Source: an uncultured Alphaproteobacteria bacterium (GTDB taxonomy: Bacteria > Pseudomonadota > Alphaproteobacteria > UBA828). From it: a DNA stretch of 64,000 nt. The translations under genes and the position numbers were made by a program. The stretch lies in NCBI GenBank assembly GCA_913053235.1, contig CAJXFT010000001.1, forward strand, positions 2,785-66,784, given 5' to 3'. This document shows, piece after piece, positions 8,368 through 40,878 of the stretch (positions are counted from its first letter, which is position 1; every line of letters begins with the position of its first letter). The notes beneath the pieces are model-generated. The model was not told the DNA's origin. It worked only from the letters and a program-made list of their open reading frames with translations, and made no database searches.

Positions 8368-8368
8368 A

Positions 8369-9040
8369 TCAGCGCAGCTCCCGAATGACCGAAAACGCCT
8401 CGGCCGCGACACAGCCGACGCTGGCGCCGCGCAGCGCGGCAAGAGCGCGGACGGCTTCCTCGGAACGGGCATGCGGAGACGGCCGCATCTCGCTCGCATA
8501 GGCAGCAAGCGCGCACATTTTGGCCTCCATATAAGCCGTCACATCGACGAACAGATTGGGGCGAAATGCGGCATGCGCGCCGCTCACCGCCCATTCGGTG
8601 CTGGACACCGTCTCAAAGGCATAGATGGCGCGCACCGCGGCACCGGGCAGCGGGCGGCAGGCGGTCGCCACCGCCTCGCAGGCAATGCGGTGATCTATGT
8701 TGAGGTCGCCGCCATGATGGGTATAGACGATTTCCGGCGCCACGCCTTCGACCACGGCTTCGATGGGTTTGACGATATCCAGCATTTCCATGCCGTCGAG
8801 GCGATTGTCGGGGAAACCGGCGAAGCGCGGCGCCTCGGCGCCGACCGCGCGCGCCGCCTGCCCGGCCGCACCCTCCAACGCTTCCAGCGCGCCGGCCGCG
8901 ATAGCGCCGCGCGCCGCCAGGCCGGTGGCGAGGATCAATATATGCACCCGATCCCCGGCGTCGGCGTGGCGTGCCAGCGTCGCGCCGCAACCGAGAATCT
9001 CATCATCCGGATGCGCCGCCACAACGAGAATTTCGCTCAT
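8369..9040 (-). CDS. PIG-L/LmbE-family N-acetylglucosaminyl deacetylase
   Basis: MSEILVVAAHPDDEILGCG signature (HPDDE). ATG at 9040 overlaps the upstream stop. Confidence 0.8.
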   Translation of the reverse strand: MSEILVVAAHPDDEILGCGATLARHADAGDRVHILILATGLAARGAIAAGALEALEGAAGQAARAVGAEAPRFAGFPDNRLDGMEMLDIVKPIEAVVEGVAPEIVYTHHGGDLNIDHRIACEAVATACRPLPGAAVRAIYAFETVSSTEWAVSGAHAAFRPNLFVDVTAYMEAKMCALAAYASEMRPSPHARSEEAVRALAALRGASVGCVAAEAFSVIRELR

Positions 9041-9807
9041 GCCGCCACCTTGCGGCCGATCGCCGCCATGACATGCTTCTCCAAAACGAACTCGCCGTGA
9101 CGCTCGAAATGAGCCGCGAGATCGCGCGCCACCGCGGCCTCGTGCGGGGCGCTGAAGAATGTCGAATTGCGCCAATAGTCGAGCAGCGCGGCGGGGCTCG
9201 GATAGCGCACCGGGTTGACGAATGTTTGCGTTTCCAGGCGCAGCTCACGCGCCATGACGGGCAGAACGGTTTCGGTCATGAAATCGGCGGCGCTGGAAAG
9301 CACCGCCGGCGGAACTTCAAAATGGCGCCGCAGAAGCTCGAACAGGGCGGAATTGTTGCTGCCATGCGGGCCGACGATCAGCAGCGCGCCACCCTCGGCG
9401 CAGCGTGCCATCATTTGCGCCATAATCCGCGCCGCATCTTCGGCGTAGTAGAGGCCGTAAAAACACGAGACCAAATCGAACTTGCGCTCGACGATGGCGG
9501 CGTGCGCGAAGGCCGTTTCCATGGCTGTCTCGACGAGGTCGCAAGAGACATCGAGCGCATCGAGACGCGCTTGCGCCTTGGCCAGCGATGCGGCGGATAT
9601 ATCGACCCCGACCAGATCCGTGACATCCGGCCGGGCGCCGTAGAGCGCCAATTGATTTCCGGTGCCGCAACAGATGTCGAGCACGCTGGCAAACGATAAT
9701 TGGTCCAGTATGGCACCGACCCAGCCGTCGAAATCGGCGCCCGCGAAACGCTTGTTGCCGGCCGCGCGGGCGCTCAGGAAATCACTGTTCGTAGCCCGAT
9801 CGCTCAT
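9037..9807 (-). CDS. Class I SAM-dependent methyltransferase
   Basis: VLDICCGTGNQL motif I and a Rossmann-like fold. ATGA overlaps on both sides. Confidence 0.75.
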   Translation of the reverse strand: MSDRATNSDFLSARAAGNKRFAGADFDGWVGAILDQLSFASVLDICCGTGNQLALYGARPDVTDLVGVDISAASLAKAQARLDALDVSCDLVETAMETAFAHAAIVERKFDLVSCFYGLYYAEDAARIMAQMMARCAEGGALLIVGPHGSNNSALFELLRRHFEVPPAVLSSAADFMTETVLPVMARELRLETQTFVNPVRYPSPAALLDYWRNSTFFSAPHEAAVARDLAAHFERHGEFVLEKHVMAAIGRKVAA

Positions 9808-11363
9808 CGTACCGCCTTCTTCAAAATGCCGGGGAAAGCCGCTTCATCGCCGCCCCGGCTGAGATACCACTTTCCCTCGGGACGATAGCCGGCCGCGGCA
9901 AACAAAGCGTGCGACGCCTGGTTCCCGGCCAGCACTTCGGCGCGCAGTTCGGCCTCGGGCAGAAGGCGGCGCGCCAGCGCCAGCGCCGCGCCGCCAATGC
10001 CCAACCGCCAGCGCTCCGGCGCCACATATATGGAAACTTCGTAAGCGCCACCTTCCATGCCGCTTTCGAGGCGCAATACACCGGCCGGCTCGTGGCCATG
10101 CATTATGATATTGAACAGACAATCAGGATCGCCAAGCCGGCCGTCGAACCAGGCCCGGTGTTCGTCCGCCGAGGGTGCCTCGGGCACGCGGAAATGGCGC
10201 CGTGTGCGTGCATCGCGCTGCCAGGCCAGCAGGCGATCGGCATCGCCGGCGGCGGCGGGGCGCAGACGAATGGCGACGCCATCATGGGCGGCCGGCGGAT
10301 CGAGGGCCGCGATGAGGCGCCCGGCGCCGAGTCCATCGCACAGACAAGCCGCCGCCCGCGCCATCTCGCGCCGCGCCATGCCGTCCTCCAGCAAATTATG
10401 CAATGCATCGATCAGCCGGCCATCGCTGAAATTTCCGGCCCCGTCCAGGACCCCGGCCCCGTCCAGGACAATTGCCGCGCCCGCGCCGCGCAGGCTTTCG
10501 GCCACCGCATGCTGGTTTTCGGCGCTGCATATCACGATCGACGGCAGGCCGAGGCAACAGCGCTCCCAGGCCCCGCCGCCGCCGGCGCCGAGCGCCACAT
10601 CGGCTTTGCACAGCAGCCCGGCGACATCTTCAATCGCGACATGAAGCGACGCCGGAAAGGGCGCCATCGCCGCCTTGGCGCGCACCGCCTCGAGATGAGG
10701 CGCGGCGCCGCCGAGCAATATATCGACCGCGAGTCGCCAATCGGCGCGCGCCAGGATGTCGAGCACCGCCGAGGTGATATTGGTAGGATCGGTGGCGCCA
10801 AAGGAGAGCAGCAGCCGACGCGGCCTGTCATTTTTTTGGCGCCGTACCAGGGCGGTCCGGCGCAGCGCCGCGAACGACGAACGCAACGGAAGATAGGCCG
10901 GACCGAGCAACTGCATGCAGCCTTTAGGGACGAGAGCGGCATAATCGTCATCTCCACGGCATGCCGCCGGGTCGAGCAGCATATCGCAATCATGGCGGCG
11001 GTCGGCGAGATCGTCGAAGGCCAGGATTCGCCGCGCCCAGGGGCGGCACGAGCGCTCGAATACCGCGTCCCTGCCATAATGATCCGTCACCAACAGGTCG
11101 GCGCCCTCGGGCCAGCGCGCGGCCAGCTCGCCCGCTTCCGCCAGCGCGTCGCCGTTCAGTTGCACGGCCGCGATGGCGGCCGGCCAGGGCGACGGCAGCG
11201 CATCACTCGCGCCGCGCCCGCTGACCAGCACGCAGCGCCATCCCGCCGCCGCAAGCGCGCGGGCGAGCGAAAGACAGCGCGCCGCGTGGCCCGCCCCGAT
11301 CGCGGCGGTGGCATCGGCGCGGAATATGGCGAGGCGGGGCTCAGCCGGCATCGGCGCGCTCAC
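9804..11363 (-). CDS. pseG: PseG (UDP-2,4-diacetamido-2,4,6-trideoxy-L-altropyranose hydrolase) fused to a C-terminal GNAT N-acetyltransferase (PseH-like)
   Basis: N-terminal ~350 aa is a GT-B/PseG-like fold (LAIFRADATAAIGAGHAARCLSLARAL ... LGAGGGGAWERCCLGLPSIVI). C-terminal ~150 aa is a GNAT fold (LRPAAAGDADRLLAWQRD...IYVAPERWRLGIGGAAL). Confidence 0.75.
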   Translation of the reverse strand: MSAPMPAEPRLAIFRADATAAIGAGHAARCLSLARALAAAGWRCVLVSGRGASDALPSPWPAAIAAVQLNGDALAEAGELAARWPEGADLLVTDHYGRDAVFERSCRPWARRILAFDDLADRRHDCDMLLDPAACRGDDDYAALVPKGCMQLLGPAYLPLRSSFAALRRTALVRRQKNDRPRRLLLSFGATDPTNITSAVLDILARADWRLAVDILLGGAAPHLEAVRAKAAMAPFPASLHVAIEDVAGLLCKADVALGAGGGGAWERCCLGLPSIVICSAENQHAVAESLRGAGAAIVLDGAGVLDGAGNFSDGRLIDALHNLLEDGMARREMARAAACLCDGLGAGRLIAALDPPAAHDGVAIRLRPAAAGDADRLLAWQRDARTRRHFRVPEAPSADEHRAWFDGRLGDPDCLFNIIMHGHEPAGVLRLESGMEGGAYEVSIYVAPERWRLGIGGAALALARRLLPEAELRAEVLAGNQASHALFAAAGYRPEGKWYLSRGGDEAAFPGILKKAVR

Positions 11364-12033
11364 CCTTTACGCAGTATGCCGTCGGCGTCGGGCTGGCCGG
11401 GAGCAATCTAAGCCGGGGCGGCTGTTCGAGCGTCGCAAAGACCTCATCCACCGCATCCGATTCTCCCCACCGGCCCACCGCATATTCGTCGAATACGGCA
11501 ATGCCGCCATTGACGATGCGCGGCCAGGCGCCGGCGAGAAGTTTCGCGGTCGGCAGATAGACATCCAAATCGCAATGCAGAAGACTGATGCGGAAGCCCG
11601 GGTTTTCGGCAAGATAGCGCGGAAATTCGCTGACGATGTCGCCCTTGATCAGCTCGACCCGATGGCCGAGGCCGAGGCGATCCAGCGCCGCCACGAGATT
11701 GTCATAGGCGCTGGCGTCATAGCTGGTCTGATGTATTTCGACGGCGCCGCGCTCATCCGCGCGGGCGTGCGTGAATTCTTCTTCAAACGTATCGAAAGCA
11801 ATAATCCTGGTGCGCGAATTGGGCTGATAGGTTTCCAGTAAATGGGCCCAGAGAATAGTGCTGGTTCCCTTATAGACACCCGCGTCAACGATATCGCCGG
11901 GCACATCCATGACCATGCGAAACAGGTCATGGCGGGCGAACATCTTCTGGAAGCGATGTTTGTCGCAATGGAAATAAAAGTTGTGGTACACCTGCCACAT
12001 GTCGGTATCGAAGGGATCGGATTCTTTGTTCAT
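11341..12033 (-). CDS. TylF/MycF-family (macrocin-O-methyltransferase-like) SAM-dependent methyltransferase
   Basis: DVPGDIVDAGVYKGTSTIL and LHCDLDVY motifs of the TylF family. First gene of operon B. Confidence 0.75.
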   Translation of the reverse strand: MNKESDPFDTDMWQVYHNFYFHCDKHRFQKMFARHDLFRMVMDVPGDIVDAGVYKGTSTILWAHLLETYQPNSRTRIIAFDTFEEEFTHARADERGAVEIHQTSYDASAYDNLVAALDRLGLGHRVELIKGDIVSEFPRYLAENPGFRISLLHCDLDVYLPTAKLLAGAWPRIVNGGIAVFDEYAVGRWGESDAVDEVFATLEQPPRLRLLPASPTPTAYCVKGERADAG

Positions 12034-12098
12034 CCTGATTTATCCATTCGTTTTGGTAACGCTTTGAGCCTCAATTTCGCCAGGCTGGCGCACGCATC

Positions 12099-13694
12099 AT
12101 GGCCAATATAATTCTGCTCATCATCGACACCCTGCGCTATGACCGCATGGGCATTTCGGGCTATCGTCCGGCGGTGACGCCGAACCTCGACGAACTTGCG
12201 GCCGAAGGCATCAACTGTGCCAATTATTTTTCCAATGGCTGCGTCACGAGCTTCGCCTTTCCCCCCATGTTCACCTCTTCCCTGCCGTTCGATTTCGGCG
12301 GCTATGACGAAGGCATTCGCCACCGCCCGATTTCGTTTCCCGAGCTTCTCCAACAGGACGGCTTCCATACCTACGGCCTGGTCACCGGCCATCCGTGCTC
12401 GTCCCATTTCGGCTACGGTCGGGGCTTCGACCAATTCCTCGACCTGATCGACCTTTACCAATGGTTCCGCTCGATCTATGTCGCCGCGCTGAGCGAGCCA
12501 ATCGCCACCTGGCAGGCGGGCAAGCTCAGCGAAGCCGAGTTGATGGCCATATTCGTGCCCAAATTCGGCCGTGTGTTGATGGATACGGAAAATTACATCG
12601 CCGCTCTCGATCGCGCCGGCGCACCGCCGAGCGGCCGCCCCCGGGCGCCCTTGCTGGCCGCCGTGCGGGCCGAACGCAAGCTGCTCGACGCGGCTCCCGG
12701 CGCCTGCCTCGAAAAAATCGCGGCGCTTAAATCCGATTATCAATTTGCCCTCGGCGAGAACGGGCTCAGCCGACGCACGCAACGGCGCATCGAGCGGCGC
12801 AAGAAACTGTTCAGCCGGTTTAACAAGCGTATTCACCTGCTTTCCAACCGCCGCGCCTTCGATGCCGGCACCGTCAACAGGCAGTTTGACGGCTTTCTGG
12901 CGCGGCGTTCGGAGCAGCCGTTTTTTGCCCTCCTGCATTATTTCGATCTGCATGAGGCGAAGCTGCAAATCTCCAAATTGCTGGCCCGACCGACGCCGCG
13001 GCGCATCAGTGACGGAATTCGCGCCTACCGCCGCATCTCCAAGGGGCGCCCGCCCGAACAGCGCGGCGTTCTTTACGATATGGGACTCGCCCTGGTCGAC
13101 GAGCAGCTCGGCGCGCTGCGCCACATGCTCAGGCGCCACGGCGTGTCCGAGGATACGGTCATCGTCATCACCGGCGATCACGGAACCGAAGCCGGCGCGC
13201 CGCATCGCGGCCTTGGCAGCAATCTTCCGCGCCTGTTCTATGACGAGCATCTTCACGTTCCGCTCATCGTCAACGGCCGCGGCATCGCGCCGCAAACCAT
13301 CGACGCGCTTTCGAGCCATCTCGACCTGGCGCCGACGATTCTGGATATCGCCGGAATCGCGCCACCGGAAGTCTTTCAGGGCATTCCGATCGCGGCGCGG
13401 CGCGAACATCCCGAAACGCTGGTGTGGAGCGAGAATGCCGGCCTCGGGCGCTGCGACATCGCCACCAAGCCGCTTTATTTCAGCGTCCGTTCGGCCGGCC
13501 ACCGAAGCATCGCGCGGGCCGAGAATTTCGTCCCCGAGCTGGGCGAATTTTACGACCTCCAAAACGACCCCTTCGCGAAGGACAATCTCGCCGGCGGCGA
13601 GCAATGCTCTGAAATCCGCGAGTCTCATCTCGCCGCTATCCGCAAACGGCTGGAGACGTTGCGCGCCCAGTCGAAGGGGCGGGACGCGGCATAG
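12099..13694 (+). CDS. Sulfatase-like (alkaline-phosphatase superfamily) hydrolase/transferase; the canonical C-x-P-x-R arginine is absent
   Basis: IILLIIDTLRYDRMG...TPNLDELAAEGINCANYFSNGCVTSF... sulfatase N-terminal architecture. This is the only plus-strand gene inside the 32-kb minus-strand array. The antisense ORF 12030..14099 is Arg-rich junk. Confidence 0.75.
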   Translation: MANIILLIIDTLRYDRMGISGYRPAVTPNLDELAAEGINCANYFSNGCVTSFAFPPMFTSSLPFDFGGYDEGIRHRPISFPELLQQDGFHTYGLVTGHPCSSHFGYGRGFDQFLDLIDLYQWFRSIYVAALSEPIATWQAGKLSEAELMAIFVPKFGRVLMDTENYIAALDRAGAPPSGRPRAPLLAAVRAERKLLDAAPGACLEKIAALKSDYQFALGENGLSRRTQRRIERRKKLFSRFNKRIHLLSNRRAFDAGTVNRQFDGFLARRSEQPFFALLHYFDLHEAKLQISKLLARPTPRRISDGIRAYRRISKGRPPEQRGVLYDMGLALVDEQLGALRHMLRRHGVSEDTVIVITGDHGTEAGAPHRGLGSNLPRLFYDEHLHVPLIVNGRGIAPQTIDALSSHLDLAPTILDIAGIAPPEVFQGIPIAARREHPETLVWSENAGLGRCDIATKPLYFSVRSAGHRSIARAENFVPELGEFYDLQNDPFAKDNLAGGEQCSEIRESHLAAIRKRLETLRAQSKGRDAA

Positions 13695-13731
13695 AGCGCA
13701 CCGGCAGCGGCATCGGTCTGCCCGTGCCGCC

Positions 13732-15897
13732 TCATTCGGAGAAAACCGGCTGTCCGGCATTGAGCTCGGCCCGCAACATGTCCTGAATGACGTCACGCAT
13801 GAACCAATCCGGCAGCGCCTCGCCGGCGCGCAGCGCCTGGCGCATGTCGGTGCCGCTGATCGGCTCCAGCGTTTCAGCCGCGCCGAGCGCCACATACGCC
13901 TCGGCTTTCGGATCATAGCCGATAGCGTCGAAGAAAATCGGCGTGAGGCCGATATCGCCCAGACTGTCGAACAGGGCGGGAATTTCCTCTGCCGCATAGA
14001 AATCGCCGACGCCGGTATGGTCGCGCCCGACGATGAAATGGGAGCAGCCCATGTTCTTGCGGCAAAGCGCCGTGAAAACCGCCTCGCGCGGGCCGGCATA
14101 GCGCGAATAGGTGGCGAAGCTGCCGAGCACCACCTTGCCCGCCGGGTAAAGCCCCCCGTCCAGCATCATCTGATAGCTGCGCATGATCGGCTCGGGCAGA
14201 AAATCGCCTGATTTCTTGGGCCCGATGACGGGGCTTACATAAAGGCCATCGGCGCCGCTCCGCTCCAATGCGCTGAGCTGAATATGTTCATGCACCCGGT
14301 GAATGACATTGCGGGTATGAAAGCCGACCACCCGGTTCCAACCCTTATGCGAAAAGACGAAGCGCGTCTGCGCCGGGGTAAGTTCGAATTGGCGATAGGG
14401 CGACGGCAGGCGCGCGAACAGGGTGATATCGCCGCCGACAAGATGGCCGCCGCCGCCGGCCAAGCGCGCCACGCCGGGATGATCCATCGAGGCGGTACCG
14501 AACCAGGGCTCGACAACGGCGTCGAAATCGAGCGCATAGACCTCGGCGACGTCGAGCAGCGCATGCGCGACGCCGGCCTCGCTCTTGAGCAGGATGCGCT
14601 CGCCGGGGTGAATTTCGCCGGCCCGGACGCTGTCGACCTGAAGCACGATCGGCAGGGTCCAGGCCTCGCCTTGCGGCAGGCGGTTGTCGCGCAACACCGA
14701 GCGCAACATTTCCTGGGTCATGAATCCGGTGAGCGGCGAATAGGTGCCGTGGGCGATCTGCTGGCAGTCCATCAACACGTTGTGCTCAACGGTGAGGCTG
14801 GCGAGGCGGGCGAGTTCCGCCGCCGCCGGCGCCTCCTGCTCGCGGTGCACAAGCCGGCCGCCATGCGGCTCGACCAGGAGCGACGCCGATTCGAGATCAT
14901 AGCCGCCCGCCGCGGCTTCGGGGCCGGCTTCGTATTCGCGAATCAATTTTACGATCATGCTGGCGCAGCCGATGGGATGCGCGCCGATCGCCGTTTCCGC
15001 CGCCAGCACCAAGCCGTCGACGCCATCGACGAGCGTGTTGTAGACGTCATTGACCTCGGCGCGGGTCGGGCCGGGCGCGGTGATCATCGATTCCAACAGA
15101 TTGGTCGCCACATAGACCTTGCGTCCGGCCACCTTGGCGATGCGCACAATATGTTTTTGCAATGCCGGAATGCGCTCGACCGGCAATTCGCGCGACAGGT
15201 CGCCGCGGTCGATCAGCAGGCCATCGGATTTCGCCGCGATCTCGGCCAGATTGTGGAGGCCGTTGCGGCACTCGATTTTCGAAATCACAAATGTCTCGGC
15301 GCCGACGATCTCGCGGATGGCATCGACATCCGTTTCCCTGTTGGCGAAAGACAGGGCGGCATGTTCGAGGCCCTTGTCGCGGCCGATCCGGAGCGCGGCA
15401 CGGTCCTTGTCCGTCAATGGCGGCATATCGATCGGCCGCTCGACCGTTACCGCCTTGTTCTGACCGATGACGCCGCCGGTCAACACGCGCATCATCGCGC
15501 CCGCCGCCGTTATCTCGATCACCTGCACCAGCACGGCGTTGAAGTCGATGCTGATAAAATCTCCGACTTCGAGAGAATCGACGATGCCATGGGGGTAGAA
15601 GTTGAGGGTTTGGGCATCGCCGGCCACGGTCTCTCGGCGGGCGCAAATGACGGTGCTCTCCTGTACCGCCACACTGCCTTGCGCCAGGCTGCCGGTGCGA
15701 ATTTGCGCGCCTTCGCTGTCGAGGCAGACCGGCACCGCGCTGTGCGATTGAATGAAATCGATGACCGCGGCGACGTCCTCGAGTTTTGTGTGCGACAGGT
15801 TGATGCGGAACAATGTCGCGCCGAGCTCCTCGAGGCGGTTCAACACCCTTTTGTTCATCGAAGCGGGGCCGAGGGTGCAGAATAAATCTTTAGCCAT
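13732..15897 (-). CDS. Fusion protein: N-terminal pyruvate-kinase catalytic barrel (no C-terminal allosteric domain) + C-terminal complete ATP sulfurylase (sulfate adenylyltransferase)
   Basis: aa 1-~335: CTLGPAS...FRINLSHT (PK K+ site), ISKIECRNG (PK IENxxG), IDRGDLS, and ATNLLESMITAPGPTRAEVNDVYNTLVDGVDGLVLAAETA (PK Mg/PEP site). aa ~340-721: PUA-like domain, VGFHTRNVIHRVHEHI (ATP sulfurylase QTRNxxHRAHE motif) and FIVGRDHTGVG (GRDHAG motif). Confidence 0.85.
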   Translation of the reverse strand: MAKDLFCTLGPASMNKRVLNRLEELGATLFRINLSHTKLEDVAAVIDFIQSHSAVPVCLDSEGAQIRTGSLAQGSVAVQESTVICARRETVAGDAQTLNFYPHGIVDSLEVGDFISIDFNAVLVQVIEITAAGAMMRVLTGGVIGQNKAVTVERPIDMPPLTDKDRAALRIGRDKGLEHAALSFANRETDVDAIREIVGAETFVISKIECRNGLHNLAEIAAKSDGLLIDRGDLSRELPVERIPALQKHIVRIAKVAGRKVYVATNLLESMITAPGPTRAEVNDVYNTLVDGVDGLVLAAETAIGAHPIGCASMIVKLIREYEAGPEAAAGGYDLESASLLVEPHGGRLVHREQEAPAAAELARLASLTVEHNVLMDCQQIAHGTYSPLTGFMTQEMLRSVLRDNRLPQGEAWTLPIVLQVDSVRAGEIHPGERILLKSEAGVAHALLDVAEVYALDFDAVVEPWFGTASMDHPGVARLAGGGGHLVGGDITLFARLPSPYRQFELTPAQTRFVFSHKGWNRVVGFHTRNVIHRVHEHIQLSALERSGADGLYVSPVIGPKKSGDFLPEPIMRSYQMMLDGGLYPAGKVVLGSFATYSRYAGPREAVFTALCRKNMGCSHFIVGRDHTGVGDFYAAEEIPALFDSLGDIGLTPIFFDAIGYDPKAEAYVALGAAETLEPISGTDMRQALRAGEALPDWFMRDVIQDMLRAELNAGQPVFSE

Positions 15898-16675
15898 GTT
15901 GCTCGTTTCTCACATTCGGTTGTTGGTTGAGGGCGCCGAAAGGGGCCGCCTTGGTGGCGCCGTGACGCGAGAGATTGATCTCCGCGATTTCGGGATGGTC
16001 GGCGAGAACGCCCAACACGGCGGCCATGGCATGGCCTTCCGCGCCGCCCGGGAGGTGGCGGAACAAGGCTTTGAGGAAGGCGTAATCCTCGGGGTAATCG
16101 AGGGTCCAGCGCGTCGTGCCCGGCAGGCCCGGCGGCGCCGCAAGGTTGGCGCGCGCTATTTCGGCCGCCTCGCGCATCCACGGCGAGACATGCTCGCGTT
16201 CGAAGCTGCGCGCGGCATTGGCGTCGGCGGCGTTCAGCGCCGCCCGGGTGAAGGCTTCGCAGTCGAGCCCGTGCGGCCAGGAGGGCGGCATATTGTTGGC
16301 CGCGTAGCCGGCGCCGGTGCGCTTGCGCAGATCGAGCAGCGCGCCGCATATCGCCGGGTCGATGGCCGGGCAATCGCTGGTCACGCGGAGCACCACATCG
16401 GCTTCCAGCTCTTGCGCCGCGCCGGCGTAGCGCGCCAGCACATCCTCGGCCGGGCCGCGATAGGCCGCGGCGCCGTGGCGCGCCGCTTCCGCCGCCACGA
16501 CATCATCCTCGGCCAGATCCGTCGTCGCGCAACACACGTCATCAACGCCCGCTATGGCCGCGCACCGCGTCAGCACATGGCCGAGCACGCTTTGCGCCGC
16601 CAGCGGCAGAAGAATTTTCCCGGGCAGGCGTGTCGATCCCATGCGCGCCTGAACGATAGCGACCGTCCGTCCCAT
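15890..16675 (-). CDS. Acylneuraminate/pseudaminate cytidylyltransferase-like (SpsF/PseF family)
   Basis: MGRTVAIVQARMGSTRLPGKIL. ATG at 16675 overlaps the upstream stop as ATGA. A TTG 14 codons upstream is an alternative start. Confidence 0.75.
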   Translation of the reverse strand: MGRTVAIVQARMGSTRLPGKILLPLAAQSVLGHVLTRCAAIAGVDDVCCATTDLAEDDVVAAEAARHGAAAYRGPAEDVLARYAGAAQELEADVVLRVTSDCPAIDPAICGALLDLRKRTGAGYAANNMPPSWPHGLDCEAFTRAALNAADANAARSFEREHVSPWMREAAEIARANLAAPPGLPGTTRWTLDYPEDYAFLKALFRHLPGGAEGHAMAAVLGVLADHPEIAEINLSRHGATKAAPFGALNQQPNVRNEQHG

Positions 16676-17877
16676 CAGCCGACGCAAGAAAGCACCGCAT
16701 CGATGACGCGCCGGCAATCGGAATCGGTCATTGCCGGAAACAACGGAATGGTAAGGGCGGCATCGTAATAGGCCTCGGACTCGGGAAAATCGCCCCGCTT
16801 GTAGCCAAATTTTTCCCGATAGTAGGGCTGTAGGTGAAGCGGAATGTAATGCACATGCACGCCAATCTTGCGGGCGCGAAGCTGCTCAAAAATCCGCCGC
16901 CGGCTTTTGCGCAAACGGTCGCGCCGCAGGCGCAGCATATAGAGGTGCCAGGCGCTCTCGCGGTCGCTCTCCTGATGCGGCGGAATGAGCAGTTCGGACT
17001 GGCCGAAGGCGGCGCTGTAGCGCGCCGCGATCTCGCGGCGGCGCGCCAGAAAGCCGTCGAGCTTGGCCAATTGGCTGAGCCCGAGGGCGCATTGGATATC
17101 GGTGACGCGGTAGTTGAAACCCAATTCCTGCATTTCGTAATACCAGGGTGCTCGGTCGCTCGCATTGGCTTTGGCATGGCCGCCGCCATCCTTGTCGGCG
17201 GCCTGGGAGGCGAGACGCATGGCGGCGCCGTCATTGGTGATGCCATGGGTGCGGAAGAGGCGCAGCGCGGCGGCGAGATCGTCATCGTCGGTGGCGATCA
17301 GGCCGCCCTCGCCCATCGCCACGGCTTTGACCGGATGGAAGGAAAAAATGCTCATCGCCGCCAGCGAGCCGACGCTACGGCCCTTATAGGTCGCTCCCAG
17401 GGAGTGCGCGGAATCCTCGATAACCGTGATGCCGTGGCGCGCGGCGATTTCGTTGATCTCGTCCATGTCGGCCGGCTGGCCGGTATAATCGATCGGGATG
17501 ATGGCCTTGGTCTTGGCCGTGATGGCGGCCTCGAGCCTGGCTGGATCGAGGCAGTAGGTATCGCGACGGATATCGGCAAATTTAACCTCGGCGCCGAGAT
17601 AAAGCGCGCAATTGCCGCTCGCCGCGAAGGTGATCGGCGCGGTGATCACCTCATCGCCCGGGCCGACGCCCGCGGCATAACAGGCGCAGTGGAGCGCCGC
17701 CGTGCCGGTGGCGACGGCAATGCCGTGGCGGGCGCCGACACGCGCCGCGACGGCCGCCTCGAAGGCGGCAATGTTGGGCCCCTGGGTGAGCCAATCGCCG
17801 CGCAATACCTCGACCACCGCCGCGATATCGTCCTCGTCGAGGCTTTGGCGGGCATAGGGAATAAAGGCTTCGCTCAT
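16675..17877 (-). CDS. pseC: DegT-family aminotransferase, PseC-like (UDP-4-amino-4,6-dideoxy-N-acetyl-beta-L-altrosamine transaminase)
   Basis: MSEAFIPYARQSLDEDDIAAVVEVLRGDWLTQGPNIAAFE... is colinear with PseC, including the SIFSFHPVK Lys region. ATG at 17877. Confidence 0.8.
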   Translation of the reverse strand: MSEAFIPYARQSLDEDDIAAVVEVLRGDWLTQGPNIAAFEAAVAARVGARHGIAVATGTAALHCACYAAGVGPGDEVITAPITFAASGNCALYLGAEVKFADIRRDTYCLDPARLEAAITAKTKAIIPIDYTGQPADMDEINEIAARHGITVIEDSAHSLGATYKGRSVGSLAAMSIFSFHPVKAVAMGEGGLIATDDDDLAAALRLFRTHGITNDGAAMRLASQAADKDGGGHAKANASDRAPWYYEMQELGFNYRVTDIQCALGLSQLAKLDGFLARRREIAARYSAAFGQSELLIPPHQESDRESAWHLYMLRLRRDRLRKSRRRIFEQLRARKIGVHVHYIPLHLQPYYREKFGYKRGDFPESEAYYDAALTIPLFPAMTDSDCRRVIDAVLSCVG

Positions 17878-17899
17878 TTTTCTCTCTTGCTTCGCCGCT

Positions 17900-19324
17900 T
17901 CAATCGAAGGCCAGTTCCTGCACGGTTTGCAAATTGCTGTAGCCCGCTTGATCGAGATCGCCGAGAGCGCCGGATTCAAGCGCCGCCTTCAACTCACGCA
18001 CGCCGGCCGCGACATCGGTTTCGATTTCGAAGGCCAGCGCCCCGTGCAGCTTGACGCAATTCACCCGATAGTTTCTCGCATCGACCGAGCTGTTGATTCG
18101 GTTGACGGTGAGGCCGGGAAAAACCGCGCCGACGATATCGCCGATCGCGTTGATGGTGTAGTTCTGTTCGCTGTCGCCGACATTGAAGATCTCGGCGCGC
18201 ACCGAATCGAGCGGCGCATCGAGCACGCCGACGATGGCGCGCGCGACGTCGCCGACATGAACATGGGGGCGCCATTGCTCGCCGCCGAAAAGATCGATGG
18301 CGCCGCGCGTGAGCGCATGTTTGGTCAGGGTGTTGACGACGAGATCGAAGCGCGCCCGGGGCGAGCAGCCATAGACGGTGCCGAGCCTGAGAATCGTCGG
18401 CGCGAACAATTGATTGGGCCGGCGCGCCATCGACAGCACCGCCTCCTCGACCATTAATTTGATCTTGCCGTAAAGGCTGACCGGCGCGGTCGCGGAGAGC
18501 TCGGTCAGAAACTCATCGGGGTTGGTGCTGGCGCCGTAAACGCTGCATGAGGAGGTATAGACGAAACGGTTGATGTTGAGATATTCGCAGAGCTGGGCGA
18601 GCGCCGTAACGGCGAGATAATTTGTCTTCAGCGCCGTTTGCGGCGCCTGGCTCACGGCGGGATCGCCGACCAGCTCGGCCAGATAGACGACCGCATCGAC
18701 GCCCTCGACCACCTCGACGAGTGTGTCTATGTTCTTGGCGTCGCCGGTCACGATATCGATTTCGCCGGCCAGCCCGCTCAGCGATTGGCGGCCATAGAGA
18801 AAGACATCGAGCACCCGCACCGCCCAGCCGTCGACGAGCAGTTTGCGCACCAGAACCGAGCCTATGTAACCGGCGCCGCCGACCACCAGAACGGTGCGCC
18901 GGCGCGGCGAAAAATCGCTGCCGGGCGCGCGCATCAACAGCGACTGCACGTCGATCATGCCGAGCGGACGGCGCCCGCCATCGACCACCGGAACCATGAC
19001 ATGCATCTGTTCGGTGGCGTAGAGCGCCTTGAGGCGGGCGAGCGCCGCATCGGCGCTTTCAGCGCTCTCCAGCTCGCTCCCGAGAATGGTCACGGGCGTC
19101 CTGTTCATCACCTCGTCGAGAGCCGTCGAGCGCACCTGGCCATTCAGAATGGCGCGCCGCAAATCGCCGGCGGAAACGATTCCACAAAGCCGCCCGTCAT
19201 CACCGACAACCGCGACAATCGCGCCGTAGCGATCGCCCAGACTCTCAAACGCCTTGGATATGGGTTCATCCGGGCCAAGCGCGGGCAACGGCGCAAGTCG
19301 GTCGATTTTCGATATTTCAGTCAT
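17900..19324 (-). CDS. CBS-domain pair fused to an NAD-dependent epimerase/dehydratase (extended SDR)
   Basis: N-terminal ~130 aa form tandem CBS domains. The remainder has VVGGAGYIGS Rossmann, YTSSCSVYG and YGKIK (YxxxK) motifs. Confidence 0.75.
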   Translation of the reverse strand: MTEISKIDRLAPLPALGPDEPISKAFESLGDRYGAIVAVVGDDGRLCGIVSAGDLRRAILNGQVRSTALDEVMNRTPVTILGSELESAESADAALARLKALYATEQMHVMVPVVDGGRRPLGMIDVQSLLMRAPGSDFSPRRRTVLVVGGAGYIGSVLVRKLLVDGWAVRVLDVFLYGRQSLSGLAGEIDIVTGDAKNIDTLVEVVEGVDAVVYLAELVGDPAVSQAPQTALKTNYLAVTALAQLCEYLNINRFVYTSSCSVYGASTNPDEFLTELSATAPVSLYGKIKLMVEEAVLSMARRPNQLFAPTILRLGTVYGCSPRARFDLVVNTLTKHALTRGAIDLFGGEQWRPHVHVGDVARAIVGVLDAPLDSVRAEIFNVGDSEQNYTINAIGDIVGAVFPGLTVNRINSSVDARNYRVNCVKLHGALAFEIETDVAAGVRELKAALESGALGDLDQAGYSNLQTVQELAFD

Positions 19325-19366
19325 TGTTCAATGCTGGGTTCAATGCCGGCGGCGGCGGCGAATTGC

Positions 19367-19810
19367 TCAACGCGGAATCACCGTCCACGGGTTCCAGTAG
19401 TCGAACGGGTAACGCACATCGTCATCGAGGCTTTCGCCGAGCGCCACGGTGGAAAAAAACAGCAGCCGCGTGTCGGGCCTGAGCGTCATGAAGCCATGGG
19501 CATAGCCGCCGGGCACATAGAGCACGCCCGGCCGGTCTTCGGCGAGCACGAATTTATTGATTTCCAGCGCCGCATCGGGCGCCTCCCAATCATCGACCTC
19601 GACCGCCGCCACGAGCGCCGCGCCGCTCGCCACATAGACATATTTGGCTTCCTGTTTGTGGGCGTGCCAGGCGCGGACAAAGCGCGTTTCATGATTGGAG
19701 ACGACATAAAACCGGCGCACCGCCGCCATGTCGAAATCATTGCAAAATTGCAGCTTGCCGCGATCGTCCATAGCGGCGCCACCGGCGATAAAATTAAGGT
19801 CGCTGTTCAT
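19367..19810 (-). CDS. WxcM/FdtA-like cupin (dTDP-4-keto-6-deoxyhexose 3,4-isomerase family)
   Basis: 147-aa cupin with RFVRAWHAHKQ...VPGGYAHGF resembling the FdtA family. Confidence 0.65.
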   Translation of the reverse strand: MNSDLNFIAGGAAMDDRGKLQFCNDFDMAAVRRFYVVSNHETRFVRAWHAHKQEAKYVYVASGAALVAAVEVDDWEAPDAALEINKFVLAEDRPGVLYVPGGYAHGFMTLRPDTRLLFFSTVALGESLDDDVRYPFDYWNPWTVIPR

Positions 19811-19835
19811 CCGGTCCTTCCAATGTCGGCTTTTT

Positions 19836-21674
19836 TCATTTCACATCTTCGCCCGGGTCCGAAGCGGCGTTCATATCCACCGGCCCTTGCTGCTTGGCGA
19901 AGGCCGAGGCGTACCAGCCGCCGCGCGCCAACAGCTCCGCGTGGCTTCCCGTATCGCTAACACAGCCGGCCTCCATAATCACGATTTGATCGGCGATCGC
20001 GACCGTCGACAGGCGATGGCCGACGACGATAATGGTCATGTCGGTTTCCCGGCGAATGCGCTCCAGCGCGGCGCGAAACGCCGCTTCGGCGTCGGCGTCC
20101 AGATTGCTCGTCGGTTCGTCGAGAACGAGAATCGGCGCGCCGCGCACCAGGGTGCGGGCGAGGTCGAGACGCTGACGCTGGCCGCCTGAAAGCCGCACGC
20201 CATCTTCACCGACCGGTGAATCATAACCCTCGGGCAGGGCCTCGATAAACTCATGGGCACCGGCGAGGCGGGCGGCGGCCTCGATATCGCGCCGCGCCGC
20301 GCCCGCCCCGCCATAGGCGATATGCGCCGCGGCGCTGGCATTGAACACTTGCGGTGTCTGCGGCGCATAGGCGATGGCGGCGCGCAGGCTCTTCAATTCA
20401 AATTCGGACTGCGGCGTTCCATCGAAGAATATTTGCCCGGCGCTGGGCTCGCGCAGCAGCGGCAGGAGGTCGATCAAGGTCGATTTACCGGCGCCCGACG
20501 GCCCCACCAGGGCGGTAATACGGCCGCTCGGAATGGTCAGGTCGATGCCGTTCAGGGCAGCCGTATTGGCGCCGCCATAGGCGAAACTGACGGTTTGGAA
20601 TTCGATGCCGGCGTGAAGTGCCTTGAAGGGCCGCACGCCGGATTCACTTTCGCGCGCCCGCGCCATCTGGTCGAAGCGGCGTTGCAGCGCCGCGAGGCTG
20701 CCGACGAACGACACCAGAGCCTGGCGCGTGCCCATCACTTCGCGCACCCGCGGCATCAGCCGGAGAATGGCGGCGAGGAACAGGCCGATCTCGCCGAGCG
20801 ACAATTCGAAGACGATGAAGCCGAAATAAAGAAAGCCCAGGATCGCCACGGCGCCGAGAATTTCGACCACCGCCGCGACCCGTGCGCCGAGCGCCAGAAC
20901 GTGCACATAGCGGCCATATTGGCGCCGTGCAATCTGCTTCATGGTGCCGGATTCGGCCACTTCGGTACCGGACAGGCGAATGAAGCGGTGCGATTTGAGG
21001 CGCTCCACAAGGAAGCTGCCAAGCGCCTGATTGGCCTCGGTAACTTGTTCACCGACATCGCGGCTCTTGCGGATCATGCCGCGCACGCCGAGCGCGGCGA
21101 GCGCCACGATGGGAAGAATCGCCAGCGCCATCGGCGGCGAAACCGCCAGCGCCAGTCCAAAATAGGACAGTATAAGAATCGTTCCGCCGATCAGAGTGAG
21201 GACCTGAAAGACGCAGCTCGACGCGCGTTCCGCCTCGGTCGTGAAATCGTTCACGGCCTGGCCAAGCTCATCCCCCTCGCTATAGGAGAGGCGGGTGTCG
21301 AGATAGCGGCGAAAGGCCCGCTCCCGCACCTCACGGATGACGCCAAAGCGCGCCGCACCGGCATAAACCGTGCGGCCATAAACAAAGCCGATGCCGGCGC
21401 ACAAAAACAACAGCGACGCCAGCAACAGCGAAGGCAGCGAGATCTCTATGCCGAGCCCGTCAAAAACCGCGACCAGAAACCGCCAAATGGTCGATTGGCC
21501 GGCCAGGGCGCCGACATCGCCGCTGCCTTCGAGATAATCGAGAATCGGCAGAATCATGCCGATGCCGATGCCCTCGAACAACACGCTGACGAGGTCGAGG
21601 CAGAGTATCGCCAGCGCCGTCGAACGCGCCAAGCCGAGTTGGCGGCAAGTGTCGAAGAATGCTCGGGGAGACAT
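19836..21674 (-). CDS. ABC transporter, fused permease/ATP-binding (MsbA/PglK-type exporter)
   Basis: Six predicted TM helices followed by an NBD with Walker A GPSGAGKST, signature LSGGQRQRLDLAR and Walker B ILVLDEPTSNLDA. Confidence 0.85.
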   Translation of the reverse strand: MSPRAFFDTCRQLGLARSTALAILCLDLVSVLFEGIGIGMILPILDYLEGSGDVGALAGQSTIWRFLVAVFDGLGIEISLPSLLLASLLFLCAGIGFVYGRTVYAGAARFGVIREVRERAFRRYLDTRLSYSEGDELGQAVNDFTTEAERASSCVFQVLTLIGGTILILSYFGLALAVSPPMALAILPIVALAALGVRGMIRKSRDVGEQVTEANQALGSFLVERLKSHRFIRLSGTEVAESGTMKQIARRQYGRYVHVLALGARVAAVVEILGAVAILGFLYFGFIVFELSLGEIGLFLAAILRLMPRVREVMGTRQALVSFVGSLAALQRRFDQMARARESESGVRPFKALHAGIEFQTVSFAYGGANTAALNGIDLTIPSGRITALVGPSGAGKSTLIDLLPLLREPSAGQIFFDGTPQSEFELKSLRAAIAYAPQTPQVFNASAAAHIAYGGAGAARRDIEAAARLAGAHEFIEALPEGYDSPVGEDGVRLSGGQRQRLDLARTLVRGAPILVLDEPTSNLDADAEAAFRAALERIRRETDMTIIVVGHRLSTVAIADQIVIMEAGCVSDTGSHAELLARGGWYASAFAKQQGPVDMNAASDPGEDVK

Positions 21675-23636: not shown

Positions 23637-23640
23637 TGCC

Positions 23641-25085: not shown

Positions 25086-25095
25086 CGGCCACAGC

Positions 25096-27422: not shown

Positions 27423-27439
27423 GGCGCTCTCATGGCGCT

Positions 27440-38825: not shown

Positions 38826-39200
38826 CCGGCGATCCCGCCAAACAAAATGCGCGGCGGCCCCGGGCGATTCCGCATATTGGCAATTAACATGTTGATATAA
38901 TGTAGAATTTTGAGACGCTACCGCCGTTCCGGGTGCAAGGCTGCGGCCCGGTCGGCGGTGAATCGCGAATCCGCGAATCGGGCCTTACGATGCCCCGGCG
39001 GAACCTGATATGTTATATGTTCAAACTTTGAACAGTGTTGCTCCGCCTATCGTTCACGAATTGAACGCCGAATCAAGGGCTTTGTTCATTTTTTGAACGC
39101 GGGGGCATGTTCGGCGCCCGGCGATTCCACGGGCATTTTCTCGCCACTTTCGGCATGCTACGATTCGCAAAATCGGGCCAAAACGGAAAACGGGCGGGTC
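38826..39200. promoter_or_regulatory. Divergent regulatory region with an extended -10 promoter and three GTTCA-N-TGAAC inverted repeats
   Basis: TGATATAAT at ~38893-38901. Palindromes: tgttcaaactttgaaca at 39018-39034, cgttcacgaattgaacg at 39051-39067 and gttcattttttgaac at 39084-39098, with centres ~32-33 bp apart. Confidence 0.5.
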
Positions 39201-40871: not shown

Positions 40872-40878
40872 TACCAAG

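What the first reader, a model, noticed from the sequence alone, without database searches (positions are those of the whole stretch)
12099..13694. Oppositely oriented sulfatase-like gene splitting the 32-kb minus-strand array, paired with the sulfurylase fusion
This is the only plus-strand gene between 429 and 32379. It is convergent with the PK-sulfurylase gene (37-bp gap) and divergent from operon B (65-bp gap). The protein has the sulfatase N-terminal architecture but lacks the arginine of the C-x-P-x-R formylglycine motif (sequence is GCVTSFAFPPMF). It may therefore be a non-canonical sulfatase or another alkaline-phosphatase-superfamily transferase. Juxtaposition of a sulfate-activating enzyme with a sulfatase-family enzyme suggests a sulfo-group add/remove or editing cycle on the glycan, or a sulfotransferase-like use of the fold.
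Basis: partly seen in the sequence, partly recalled or inferred. Interest (0 to 1): 0.6.

Follow-up and report, generated by a model that had tools for sequence, protein, structure and literature searches.

The report
Sulfatase-fold enzyme repurposed as sulfate transferase
This gene encodes a cytoplasmic protein with a sulfatase shape but a threonine in place of the sulfatase catalytic residue, and because its relatives almost always sit beside (or are fused to) the enzymes that make activated sulfate or an analogous activated phosphoramidate, it most likely adds sulfate to a surface sugar polymer rather than removing it, which would be a previously undescribed type of enzyme.

The parts
12099..13694 (+). 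Gene for a 531-aa cytoplasmic sulfatase-fold protein with a Thr nucleophile (the finding)
12126..12131 (+). Codons for Asp10-Thr11, the first metal-ligand motif (sulfatases have DD or DQ here)
   Evidence: D10 is nearly invariant in A1; it aligns with the N-terminal D of sulfatases
12246..12260 (+). Codons for Thr50-Ser-Phe-Ala-Phe54. Thr50 occupies the formylglycine (nucleophile) position and Phe54 replaces the CxPxR arginine
   Evidence: HMM alignments to 9bb9, 6hr5 and 5g2v. T50 is at least 90% conserved. Thr in 48 of 50 and Ser in 1 of 50 members next to sulfate-activation genes
12273..12305 (+). Codons for Thr59-Tyr69, the family signature T-S-S-L-P-F-D-F-G-G-Y (consensus P-[LF]-D-x-G-G-Y)
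   Evidence: Invariant S60, P63, G68, Y69; conserved through archaeal and distant bacterial members
12384..12392 (+). Codons for Thr96-Gly-His98. Thr96 replaces sulfatase Lys-A; His98 corresponds to His-A
   Evidence: Alignment to BT4656/5g2v; nearly invariant in A1
12453..12908 (+). Family-specific all-helical insertion (about residues 119-270) between the two halves of the sulfatase core
12936..12962 (+). Codons for His280-Lys288 (HYFDLHEAK), containing His285, the counterpart of sulfatase His-B
   Evidence: H280, H285 and E286 invariant; aligned to the sulfatase His-B segment
13176..13208 (+). Codons for Asp360-His361-Gly362 (second metal-ligand motif) through invariant Arg370
   Evidence: Invariant D360, H361, G362, R370; aligned to GDHG of sulfatases
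12034..12098 (.). 65-bp divergent intergenic region shared with the TylF-like methyltransferase gene
   Evidence: no sigma-70 consensus match
13695..13731 (.). 37-bp convergent intergenic region with an imperfect GC-rich hairpin (GGCAGCGGCA / TGCCCGTGCC)
   Evidence: Sequence read; not called by the terminator scan because there is no T-run
13732..15897 (-). Partner gene: pyruvate kinase barrel + PUA_2 + ATP sulfurylase fusion (721 aa)
   Evidence: Pfam and NCBIfam. Sat domain matches M. thermolithotrophicus ATP sulfurylase at 1e-79. PK conserved motifs are kept. Conserved next to the target in 13 of 16 loci with at least 38% identity
11341..12033 (-). TylF-family O-methyltransferase, the conserved neighbour of the target in Pse-type loci
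   Evidence: Pfam PF05711; adjacent to the target in window, L001, L002, L004, L006, L007, L009, L010
7315..11363 (-). Pseudaminic-acid genes: PseI (7315-8508), PIG-L deacetylase (8369-9175), methyltransferase (9037-9807), PseG/PseH-like fusion (9804-11363)
   Evidence: NCBIfam TIGR03586 and TIGR03590 above cut-off; Pfam
15890..21674 (-). CMP-sugar synthetase (15890-16717), PseC (16675-17979), CBS-fused PseB-like dehydratase (17900-19324), cupin (19367-19810), ABC exporter (19836-21674)
   Evidence: the same genes accompany the target in L001, L002, L004

Best explanation
The gene encodes a soluble cytoplasmic enzyme that evolved from an S1 sulfatase scaffold and swapped the formylglycine machinery for a metal-activated threonine (Thr50, with Asp10, Asp360 and His361 as the metal site). 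It most likely works as a group transferase. Thr50 attacks the sulfur of activated sulfate (PAPS, or APS in this lineage, where no APS kinase is nearby), releasing PAP or AMP and forming a sulfo-threonine enzyme. A hydroxyl of the pseudaminic-acid-containing glycan or its precursor then takes the sulfuryl group while the glycan is still in the cytoplasm, before ABC-transporter export. The neighbouring PK-ATP sulfurylase fusion supplies the donor, and PK probably regenerates ATP or removes ADP. Shown: the fold, the residue substitutions, the conserved gene neighbourhoods and the fusions. Inferred: the donor, the acceptor, the covalent mechanism and the role of PK. Sister clades of the same family appear to do the equivalent reaction with 3'-phospho-CDP-phosphoramidate.
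Against: No biochemical or genetic data exist for any member. No APS kinase or PAPS-type gene is present in this window or its closest relatives, so the donor here is uncertain. The fused Sat domain has both positions that I recall as sulfate-contacting in the yeast enzyme changed (QTRN to HTRN, GRDHAG to GRDHTG). Canonical sulfotransferases coexist with family members in some loci and are even fused to one, so the family is not simply a replacement for them. About 40% of family loci show no donor-pathway gene within 10 kb. A threonyl sulfate intermediate is chemically inert and has no enzymatic precedent. It is not known whether the glycan of this organism is sulfated.
Confidence: 0.5

Rival explanations
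1. By-product phosphatase. The enzyme hydrolyses the 3'-phosphate of the nucleoside 3',5'-bisphosphates (PAP, or 3'-phospho-CMP) left after sulfate or phosphoramidate transfer. It would replace CysQ and relieve product inhibition, while the real transferase is encoded elsewhere.
For: Both donor pathways linked to the family end in a nucleoside 3',5'-bisphosphate (PMC11800397). A known sulfated-capsule cluster (Cobetia) carries a dedicated cysQ, and no CysQ-type gene is seen in the module. Fusion to a canonical sulfotransferase would channel PAP to a phosphatase. Thr or Ser nucleophiles are typical of phosphoryl-transfer enzymes in this superfamily.
Against: Three paralogues in one operon are not expected for a housekeeping-type phosphatase. 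Members sit inside nonulosonic-acid operons with no donor or sulfotransferase genes nearby. Fusion to APS kinase would risk a futile cycle on PAPS. Fusions to methyltransferase and LicD domains point to glycan tailoring. Compact operons such as L053 would then make and recycle PAPS with no transferase. From general knowledge, a single-metal sulfatase-type site suits monoanionic substrates better than dianionic phosphomonoesters. A distant Haloferax relative sits next to a CysQ-family gene, which would be redundant.
Confidence: 0.15
2. Transferase of a non-sulfate group in this lineage. The PK-Sat fusion, with its altered anion site, activates another oxyanion (a phosphate-like or phosphoramidate-like species). 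The target installs that group on the glycan, possibly followed by methylation by the adjacent TylF-like enzyme, as in O-methyl phosphoramidate.
For: Both recalled sulfate-contact positions of Sat are changed only in the fusion clade. No APS kinase is nearby. A methyltransferase is the conserved neighbour of the target, just as a methyltransferase precedes the family member in the MeOPN-like operon L133. Other clades of the family are tied to a phosphoramidate donor. PK accompanies Sat in every locus where flanks allow, which ATP regeneration explains only loosely.
Against: The Sat domain still matches bona fide ATP sulfurylases at 1e-79 with the RNxxHxxH and GRDH motifs intact. L003/L008 combine the same fusion type with an APS kinase. 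Unfused partners in the same target clade are fully canonical. No glutamine-kinase, amidohydrolase or cytidylyltransferase set occurs with the window's clade. No alternative anion source is evident.
Confidence: 0.12
3. Genuine hydrolytic sulfatase that trims or edits sulfate esters on the glycan or a precursor.
For: Overall fold and the C-terminal SGSH_C subdomain are those of S1 sulfatases. His-A, His-B and the metal site are retained. It is adjacent to a sulfate-activating enzyme.
Against: There is no Cys or Ser-x-P-x-R motif; Thr50, Phe54 and Thr96 replace three residues required for formylglycine catalysis. It is cytoplasmic with no signal peptide. No FGE or anSME is among the 50 window ORFs scanned. 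It scores far below every curated sulfatase equivalog cut-off. Fusion to APS kinase and tight operon coupling to PAPS synthesis would be a futile cycle.
Confidence: 0.05
4. Phospho-alcohol transferase of the LtaS/EptA type (phosphoglycerol, phosphoethanolamine or phosphocholine) whose link to sulfate activation is incidental.
Against: No transmembrane anchor, and a cytoplasmic location. It is closer to sulfatases than to LtaS or EptA. The enrichment of Sat/PK/APSK or the phosphoramidate pathway next to family members, and the APS-kinase fusion, are far beyond coincidence.
Confidence: 0.05

Closest known systems
S1 formylglycine-dependent sulfatases (e.g. lambda-carrageenan sulfatase S1_8A 9bb9, S1_25 module 6hr5, human arylsulfatase A)
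   Different: Thr instead of Cys/Ser-derived formylglycine, Phe instead of the motif Arg, Thr instead of Lys-A. A roughly 150-residue helical insertion. Cytoplasmic. Encoded in biosynthetic rather than catabolic loci, next to sulfate-activating rather than sulfate-releasing functions.
Thr-nucleophile group transferases of the alkaline-phosphatase superfamily (LtaS/LtaP, EptA/EptC/MCR-1, GacH)
   Different: Those enzymes are membrane-anchored, act outside the cytoplasm and take phospho-alcohols from lipids. This one is soluble and cytoplasmic, is structurally nearer to sulfatases, and is genomically tied to nucleotide-activated donors (PAPS/APS, or 3'-phospho-CDP-phosphoramidate in sister clades).
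Canonical PAPS-dependent carbohydrate sulfotransferases (Pfam Sulfotransfer_1 / Sulfotransfer_3; e.g. NodH, recalled from memory)
   Same: The proposed net reaction (sulfuryl from PAPS to a sugar hydroxyl) and co-location with PAPS-synthesis genes in glycan loci, as in the sulfated capsule clusters of Vibrio and Cobetia.
   Different: Unrelated fold; no 5'-PSB or 3'-PB motifs. Canonical enzymes transfer directly without a covalent intermediate. They coexist with or are fused to family members in some loci.
Campylobacter jejuni O-methyl phosphoramidate system (Cj1415-Cj1418 donor synthesis, Cj1419/Cj1420 methyltransferases, Cj1421/Cj1422 transferases)
   Same: Sister clades of this family sit in operons with homologues of all four donor-synthesis enzymes plus a methyltransferase (L024, L133, L099). 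The donor is a 3'-phosphorylated nucleotide analogue of PAPS made with an APS-kinase homologue (PMC11800397). The window gene likewise pairs donor synthesis, a candidate transferase and a methyltransferase.
   Different: The window's clade is linked to ATP sulfurylase and PK, not to the glutamine-kinase route. Whether Cj1421/Cj1422 share this fold could not be tested; no Campylobacter protein appeared in a profile search.
Arylsulfate sulfotransferase (ASST; recalled from memory, not tested here)
   Same: Precedent for a sulfotransferase that works through a covalently sulfated enzyme residue in a ping-pong mechanism.
   Different: Beta-propeller fold, histidine nucleophile, periplasmic, PAPS-independent, phenolic donors.

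Membership tests
S1 formylglycine-dependent sulfatase | Alkaline-phosphatase-like sulfatase fold with C-terminal subdomain | tested here: met
S1 formylglycine-dependent sulfatase | C/S-x-P/A-x-R motif providing the formylglycine nucleophile and its stabilising Arg | tested here: not met
   Thr50 aligns with the FGly residue and Phe54 with the Arg. Conserved as Thr/Ser and hydrophobic across the family; Cys48 is not conserved
S1 formylglycine-dependent sulfatase | Sulfate-binding Lys-A in the G-K-x-H signature | tested here: not met
   Thr96 aligns with Lys-A; His98 (His-A) is retained
S1 formylglycine-dependent sulfatase | Score above a curated sulfatase equivalog cut-off | tested here: not met
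   Best NCBIfam hits are choline-sulfatase at 72.9 bits against a cut-off of 433 and arylsulfatase at 67.2 against 481
S1 formylglycine-dependent sulfatase | Export signal and/or a maturase (FGE or anSME) available | tested here: not met
   The N-terminus starts directly with strand 1 (MANIILLIIDTLRYD). No FGE or radical-SAM maturase among 50 window ORFs scanned. The rest of the genome was not available
LtaS/EptA-type Thr-nucleophile phospho-group transferases | Thr nucleophile coordinated to a single metal held by acidic, Asp and His ligands | tested here: met
   D10, T50, D360, H361 by alignment and conservation; catalysis itself was not tested
LtaS/EptA-type Thr-nucleophile phospho-group transferases | N-terminal multi-pass membrane domain with an extracytoplasmic catalytic domain | tested here: not met
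   531-aa soluble protein; no hydrophobic N-terminal region
LtaS/EptA-type Thr-nucleophile phospho-group transferases | Phospholipid-derived phospho-alcohol donor | not testable with these tools
   Genomic partners point instead to nucleotide-activated sulfate or phosphoramidate
Canonical PAPS sulfotransferases (PF00685/PF13469) | Sulfotransferase fold with 5'-PSB and 3'-PB PAPS-binding motifs | tested here: not met
   No Pfam hit to any sulfotransferase family; the fold is sulfatase-like
Canonical PAPS sulfotransferases (PF00685/PF13469) | Uses PAPS to sulfate an acceptor | not testable with these tools
   Only indirect evidence: neighbourhood and fusion to APS kinase
CysQ/NrnA-type PAP phosphatases | Inositol-monophosphatase or DHH fold | tested here: not met
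   Sulfatase fold. The function 'PAP phosphatase' is not excluded and is kept as a rival
MeOPN transferases Cj1421/Cj1422 | Sequence homology to Cj1421/Cj1422 | not testable with these tools
Papers read give no domain family. A profile search with phosphoramidate-type members returned no Campylobacter protein among 237 hits, 120 of them listed
MeOPN transferases Cj1421/Cj1422 | Encoded with Cj1415-Cj1418-type donor-synthesis genes and a methyltransferase | tested here: not met
   Met for sister clades (L024, L133, L099). Not met for this window or its clade, which pairs only with Sat/PK

The most novel reading that the evidence does not exclude
The whole family is a new enzyme class: sulfatase-fold, threonine-nucleophile transferases that take the terminal XO3 group (sulfuryl or phosphoramidyl) from 3'-phosphonucleoside-diphospho-type donors (PAPS, 3'-phospho-CDP-phosphoramidate) and place it on surface glycans. 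The window enzyme would then be a second, evolutionarily independent kind of carbohydrate sulfotransferase acting on a pseudaminic-acid polymer. Its sister clades would be the transferases for phosphoramidate modification outside Campylobacter, including in haloarchaea.
Probability: 0.45. Interest if true: 0.85.

Novelty: new variant of a known kind. Interest (0 to 1): 0.72.

Why it matters
If correct, a scaffold known for removing sulfate has been turned into one that installs it, by replacing formylglycine with a plain threonine. That is a clean example of mechanistic repurposing within the alkaline-phosphatase superfamily. It would name the enzyme responsible for sulfating (or, in sister clades, phosphoramidating) nonulosonic-acid surface glycans in abundant uncultured marine and soil bacteria (Rhizobiaceae, SAR116, Pelagibacterales, Rhodospirillales) and in some haloarchaea, where these genes are currently annotated as 'arylsulfatase A-like'. 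That label could mislead surveys that count such genes as glycan-degrading sulfatases. It also gives a testable candidate for phosphoramidate transfer outside Campylobacter, and it raises a concrete question about why pyruvate kinase is built into a PAPS-synthesis module.

Tried and rejected
1. Haloferax Agl7 lead. Agl7 (HVO_2046) is genetically required for sulfation of a dolichol-phosphate-linked hexose (PMC3892788). I recalled it as sulfatase-fold but could not verify that. The supplement is not held, the Haloferax homologue I found (L036) is in a different cluster, and no hit was named Agl7. It is not used as evidence.

2. Hidden canonical sulfotransferase in the window. Permissive Pfam scans of the unannotated ORFs, a PSB/3'-PB motif scan and phmmer with four divergent sulfotransferase seeds found nothing. 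The 243-aa unknown looks deacetylase-like, the 475-aa unknown is a PP-loop amidotransferase, and the 538-aa unknown resembles a KpsS/TagF-like transferase by motif only.

3. APS kinase in the window: none by tblastn.

4. The 665-aa unknown next to the family member in L133 as the 'real' transferase: it has no homologue in any other locus.

5. An altered Sat as a general feature of the module: rejected, because only the fusion clade has the His/Thr variants.

6. The opposite orientation as functionally meaningful: rejected, because it is not conserved.

8. Literature searches for sulfatase-fold sulfate or phosphoramidate transferases, or for PK-sulfurylase fusions, found nothing relevant.
Full report
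OBSERVATION. The ORF at 12099-13694 (+) is real: 531 aa, ATG start, GC3 0.77 against GC2 0.45. Its N-terminus matches that of homologues. It is separated by 65 bp from a divergent TylF-family methyltransferase gene (11341-12033, -). It is separated by 37 bp from a convergent gene encoding a pyruvate-kinase barrel + PUA_2 + ATP-sulfurylase fusion (13732-15897, -). Minus-strand genes supported by Pfam, NCBIfam or cross-locus homology tile 429-32379, so this is the only plus-strand gene in that stretch. Pfam gives Sulfatase (4e-39, split in two stretches) and SGSH_C. Every curated NCBIfam sulfatase model is missed by a wide margin.

CONTEXT IN THE WINDOW. The gene lies inside a pseudaminic-acid pathway: PseI, a PseG/PseH-like fusion, PseC, a CMP-sugar synthetase, and a CBS-fused dehydratase of the PseB type (epimerase/dehydratase family; it does not reach the PseB model cut-off). 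These come with a PIG-L deacetylase, methyltransferases, an AsnB-like amidotransferase and an ABC exporter. A second, legionaminic-type nonulosonic-acid pathway follows at 21688-32379. After that comes a surface-polysaccharide region with a WaaL-type ligase, a WecA-type initiating transferase, dTDP-sugar genes, a carbamoyltransferase and a PEP-mutase phosphonate branch, and then housekeeping genes. There are no flagellar genes. The closest relatives are MAGs labelled uncultured Rhizobiaceae (86% and 82% identity).

HMM alignments to three different solved sulfatases agree on the active site. Thr50 occupies the formylglycine position, Phe54 replaces the CxPxR arginine, and Thr96 replaces Lys-A. 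His98 (His-A), His285 (His-B) and the metal ligands Asp10 and Asp360-His361 are kept. Across the family Thr50 is at least 90% conserved (Ser in a few members), Cys48 is not conserved, and the segment T-[QS]-x-x-x-P...P-[LF]-D-x-G-G-Y is a family signature. The protein begins directly with the first beta-strand, so it is cytoplasmic. It cannot be a formylglycine sulfatase.

THE FAMILY. A word-indexed search found about 45 full-length orthologues (36-86% identity), followed by a sharp drop in score. An exhaustive profile search of 1.8 billion cluster representatives listed more than 150 representatives below 1e-66, most of them 520-600 aa and matched end to end. No member carries an informative name; sources call them 'arylsulfatase A-like enzyme' or 'sulfatase-like hydrolase/transferase'. 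Carriers are almost all uncultured: Rhizobiaceae, Rhodospirillaceae, SAR116, Pelagibacterales, Omnitrophota, Syntrophobacter, Pirellulales and a few haloarchaea.

GENOMIC ASSOCIATIONS. (i) Sulfate activation. ATP sulfurylase and pyruvate kinase, fused or separate, lie next to the gene in 13 of the 16 loci with at least 38% identity, and also next to members of only 26-27% identity. After adding a metagenome scan, there were 41 non-redundant loci with at least 5 kb on both sides. Of these, 24 have Sat, PK or APS kinase within 10 kb, 19 have Sat+PK and 17 have an APS kinase. Only 4 have a sulfotransferase detectable with my seeds. As a rough control, 26 loci of more distant matches, mostly short-form haloarchaeal and CPR sulfatase-like genes, have none of these partners.

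(ii) An unbiased clustering of all ORFs from eight divergent loci found only three shared families: PK/Sat, the target family and APS kinase.

(iii) Nonulosonic-acid genes accompany 24 of the 41 loci, and ABC exporters accompany 21. Some members sit in such operons with no sulfate-activation gene nearby, and a minority are in unrelated contexts.

(iv) The unfused Sat partners carry fully canonical QTRN..H..H and GRDHAG motifs. The window's Sat domain matches the Methanothermococcus ATP sulfurylase at 1e-79, and its PK domain keeps the conserved PK motifs. Sulfate activation in the module is therefore credible.

FUSIONS. Family domains occur fused to four kinds of partner: an APS-kinase domain (P0252), a canonical sulfotransferase domain (P0242 and the L012 ORF), TPR plus methyltransferase domains (P0284), and a LicD domain (P0307). 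The locus of P0252 reads [family-APS kinase]-Sat-PK, followed by nonulosonic-acid biosynthesis genes, with no canonical sulfotransferase within 10 kb.

A SECOND, ANALOGOUS DONOR PATHWAY. In Haloferax elongans a full-length family member (BLASTP 2e-25 to the target, same signature) is followed by four genes: a PPDK_N/PEP-utilizer protein, a class-I glutamine amidotransferase/peptidase C26, an NTP_transf_3 nucleotidyltransferase and an APS-kinase homologue. This is the domain set of C. jejuni Cj1418, Cj1417, Cj1416 and Cj1415. [quoted passage not shown] Cj1421 and Cj1422 are the genetically defined transferases (PMC11800397, PMC3907429).

The same set lies next to family members in several bacterial metagenome loci. 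In L133 the order is Gln-kinase-like, APS-kinase-like, unknown, amidohydrolase, nucleotidyltransferase, APH-like, methyltransferase, family member. The only other sizeable unknown there has no homologue in any other locus. One 17-kb operon, L099 (seen also as L114 and, cut short by its contig end, as L021), combines a canonical sulfotransferase, a methyltransferase, three family paralogues, a CMP-sugar synthetase, Sat, PK, one APS-kinase-type gene and the Gln-kinase/amidohydrolase/nucleotidyltransferase trio. Partner type follows the family tree. The window's clade is linked only to Sat/PK, a large 28%-identity clade to Sat/PK/APSK, and several deep clades to the phosphoramidate set.

INTERPRETATION. 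PAPS and 3'-phospho-CDP-phosphoramidate are the same kind of molecule: a 3'-phosphorylated nucleotide carrying a monoanionic tetrahedral group (SO3 or PO2NH2) on its 5'-phosphate. A protein family that is the one conserved partner of both donor pathways, is embedded in glycan operons, is expanded into paralogues, and is fused to donor-making or glycan-tailoring domains is most simply the enzyme that uses the donor, that is, the transferase.

The chemistry fits from general knowledge of the superfamily, which was not tested here. Single-metal sulfatase-type sites handle monoanionic sulfate esters and phosphodiesters. LtaS and EptA use the same Thr-on-metal arrangement for ping-pong group transfer. 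Cys-to-Ser sulfatase mutants are known to trap a sulfo-serine enzyme. For this window I therefore propose sulfuryl transfer from PAPS, or APS, via sulfo-Thr50 to the pseudaminic-acid glycan or a precursor in the cytoplasm, before ABC export. PK is inferred to regenerate ATP or remove ADP. The donor, acceptor and mechanism are all inferred. I put confidence at about 0.5.

RIVALS AND OPEN POINTS. The strongest rival is a nucleoside 3',5'-bisphosphate phosphatase that clears PAP or pCp. It explains the link to both pathways and the sulfotransferase fusion. It fits poorly with the triple paralogues, the APS-kinase, methyltransferase and LicD fusions, the nonulosonic-acid-embedded members, and compact operons that would then lack any transferase.

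A second rival is specific to this lineage. The fused Sat has both positions that I recall as sulfate-contacting changed (HTRN, GRDHTG), no APS kinase is nearby, and a methyltransferase is the conserved neighbour. The transferred group might therefore not be sulfate.

A hydrolytic or editing sulfatase and an LtaS-like phospho-alcohol transferase are each unlikely.

Three things remain unexplained. PK accompanies Sat in every module. Canonical sulfotransferases coexist with the family in some loci. About 40% of loci show no donor genes within 10 kb.

COMPARISON WITH KNOWN SYSTEMS AND NOVELTY. The protein is not a member of the S1 sulfatases, because three defining residues were tested and not met. 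It is not an LtaS/EptA-type enzyme, because it has no membrane domain and is cytoplasmic. It is not a canonical sulfotransferase or a CysQ, because the fold differs. Homology to Cj1421/Cj1422 could not be tested, and a profile search found no Campylobacter relative. The literature searches found no description of a sulfatase-fold sulfate or phosphoramidate transferase or of PK-sulfurylase modules. The only hint is that a 'sulfatase' gene is listed in the candidate N-glycosylation gene set of Halorubrum PV6, whose glycan carries a sulfated or phosphorylated hexuronic acid and a legionaminic acid (PMC6137143). I rate it a new variant of a known kind: an alkaline-phosphatase-superfamily Thr-nucleophile group transferase with a new scaffold origin, cellular location and donor class. 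All of this is comparative inference, and no member has been studied experimentally.

Noticed in passing
window 13732-15897 (-): The PK-ATP sulfurylase fusion lacks the PK C-terminal regulatory domain. Its Sat domain has both positions that I recall as sulfate-contacting in the yeast enzyme changed (FQTRN to FHTRN, GRDHAG to GRDHTG). This pair of changes is confined to the fusion clade (window-type loci, L003, L008); unfused partners are canonical.
   Followed up: partly
all Sat-containing loci (e.g. L004, L005, L053, L099, L106-L131): Pyruvate kinase accompanies the ATP sulfurylase in every family locus where flanks allow (19 of 19 non-redundant), as a fusion, as a barrel-only gene or as a full PK with PK_C. 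A PK built into a PAPS-synthesis module is not described in the papers I could search.
   Followed up: partly
L024 9953-16898 (Haloferax elongans ATCC BAA-1513 contig_24): A complete Cj1418/1417/1416/1415-like cassette (the O-methyl-phosphoramidate donor pathway known from Campylobacter) sits in a haloarchaeon, next to a family member and an IS1595 transposase, in a region of lower GC3 than its surroundings.
   Followed up: partly
L099 4331-21466 (also L114, L021): A single co-directional operon combines a canonical sulfotransferase, a methyltransferase, three sulfatase-fold paralogues, a CMP-sugar synthetase, Sat, PK, one APS-kinase-type gene and the Gln-kinase/amidohydrolase/nucleotidyltransferase trio. 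Both activated donors are apparently served by one 3'-kinase.
   Followed up: partly
L005 14354-15241, L015 14336-15223, L042 2248-3123: A Pfam-less protein of about 290 aa, placed just after PK (between PK and APS kinase in L005 and L015), has sulfotransferase-like motifs (NGRSGQAT; LVRDPxLNMxS). It may be a divergent sulfotransferase family. It has no PDB sequence match.
   Followed up: partly
window 39093-42015 (+): A PEP mutase fused to a nucleotidyltransferase is followed by a TPP-dependent phosphonopyruvate-decarboxylase-like gene. This indicates a phosphonate (aminoethylphosphonate-type) decoration branch in the same polysaccharide island.
   Followed up: no
window 7315-19324 and 21688-32379 (-): Two nonulosonic-acid pathways lie side by side: a pseudaminic type, and a legionaminic type with a PP-loop amidotransferase plus HisH/HisF-like genes for an acetamidino group. 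Each has its own CMP-synthetase.
   Followed up: partly
window 5688-7304 (-): A 538-aa protein has no Pfam hit even at E of 10, yet it is conserved in Pse-type loci (L001, L002, L004, L005). Its C-terminal region carries a KPHP-type motif that I recall from Capsule_synth/TagF-like transferases, so it is possibly the Pse transferase.
   Followed up: no
window 9804-11363 (-) and 17900-19324, 31339-32379 (-): Unusual domain fusions in the sugar pathway: PseG fused to a GNAT (PseH-like) domain, and CBS domains fused both to a PseB-type dehydratase and to a sugar-1-phosphate nucleotidyltransferase.
   Followed up: no
L036 5363-12604 (Haloferax massiliensis) and relatives L043, L039-L047: Short-form (about 450 aa, no helical insertion) Thr-type sulfatase-like genes of haloarchaea sit between GT2 and GT1 glycosyltransferases, a GtrA-DUF2079 membrane protein and an inositol-monophosphatase/CysQ-family gene. 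This may bear on the unknown enzymes that sulfate haloarchaeal glycolipids or glycoproteins.
   Followed up: partly
L004 1496-2248 (+), L010 1482-2234: A 250-aa multi-pass membrane protein without a Pfam hit lies immediately upstream of APS kinase-Sat-PK. It could be a sulfate or anion permease dedicated to the module.
   Followed up: no
window 12030-14099 (-): A 689-aa antisense ORF spans the whole target gene. It has no family support, and its only cross-locus matches are antisense ORFs over the homologous gene in L003. It is a GC-rich shadow ORF that could mislead gene callers.
   Followed up: yes
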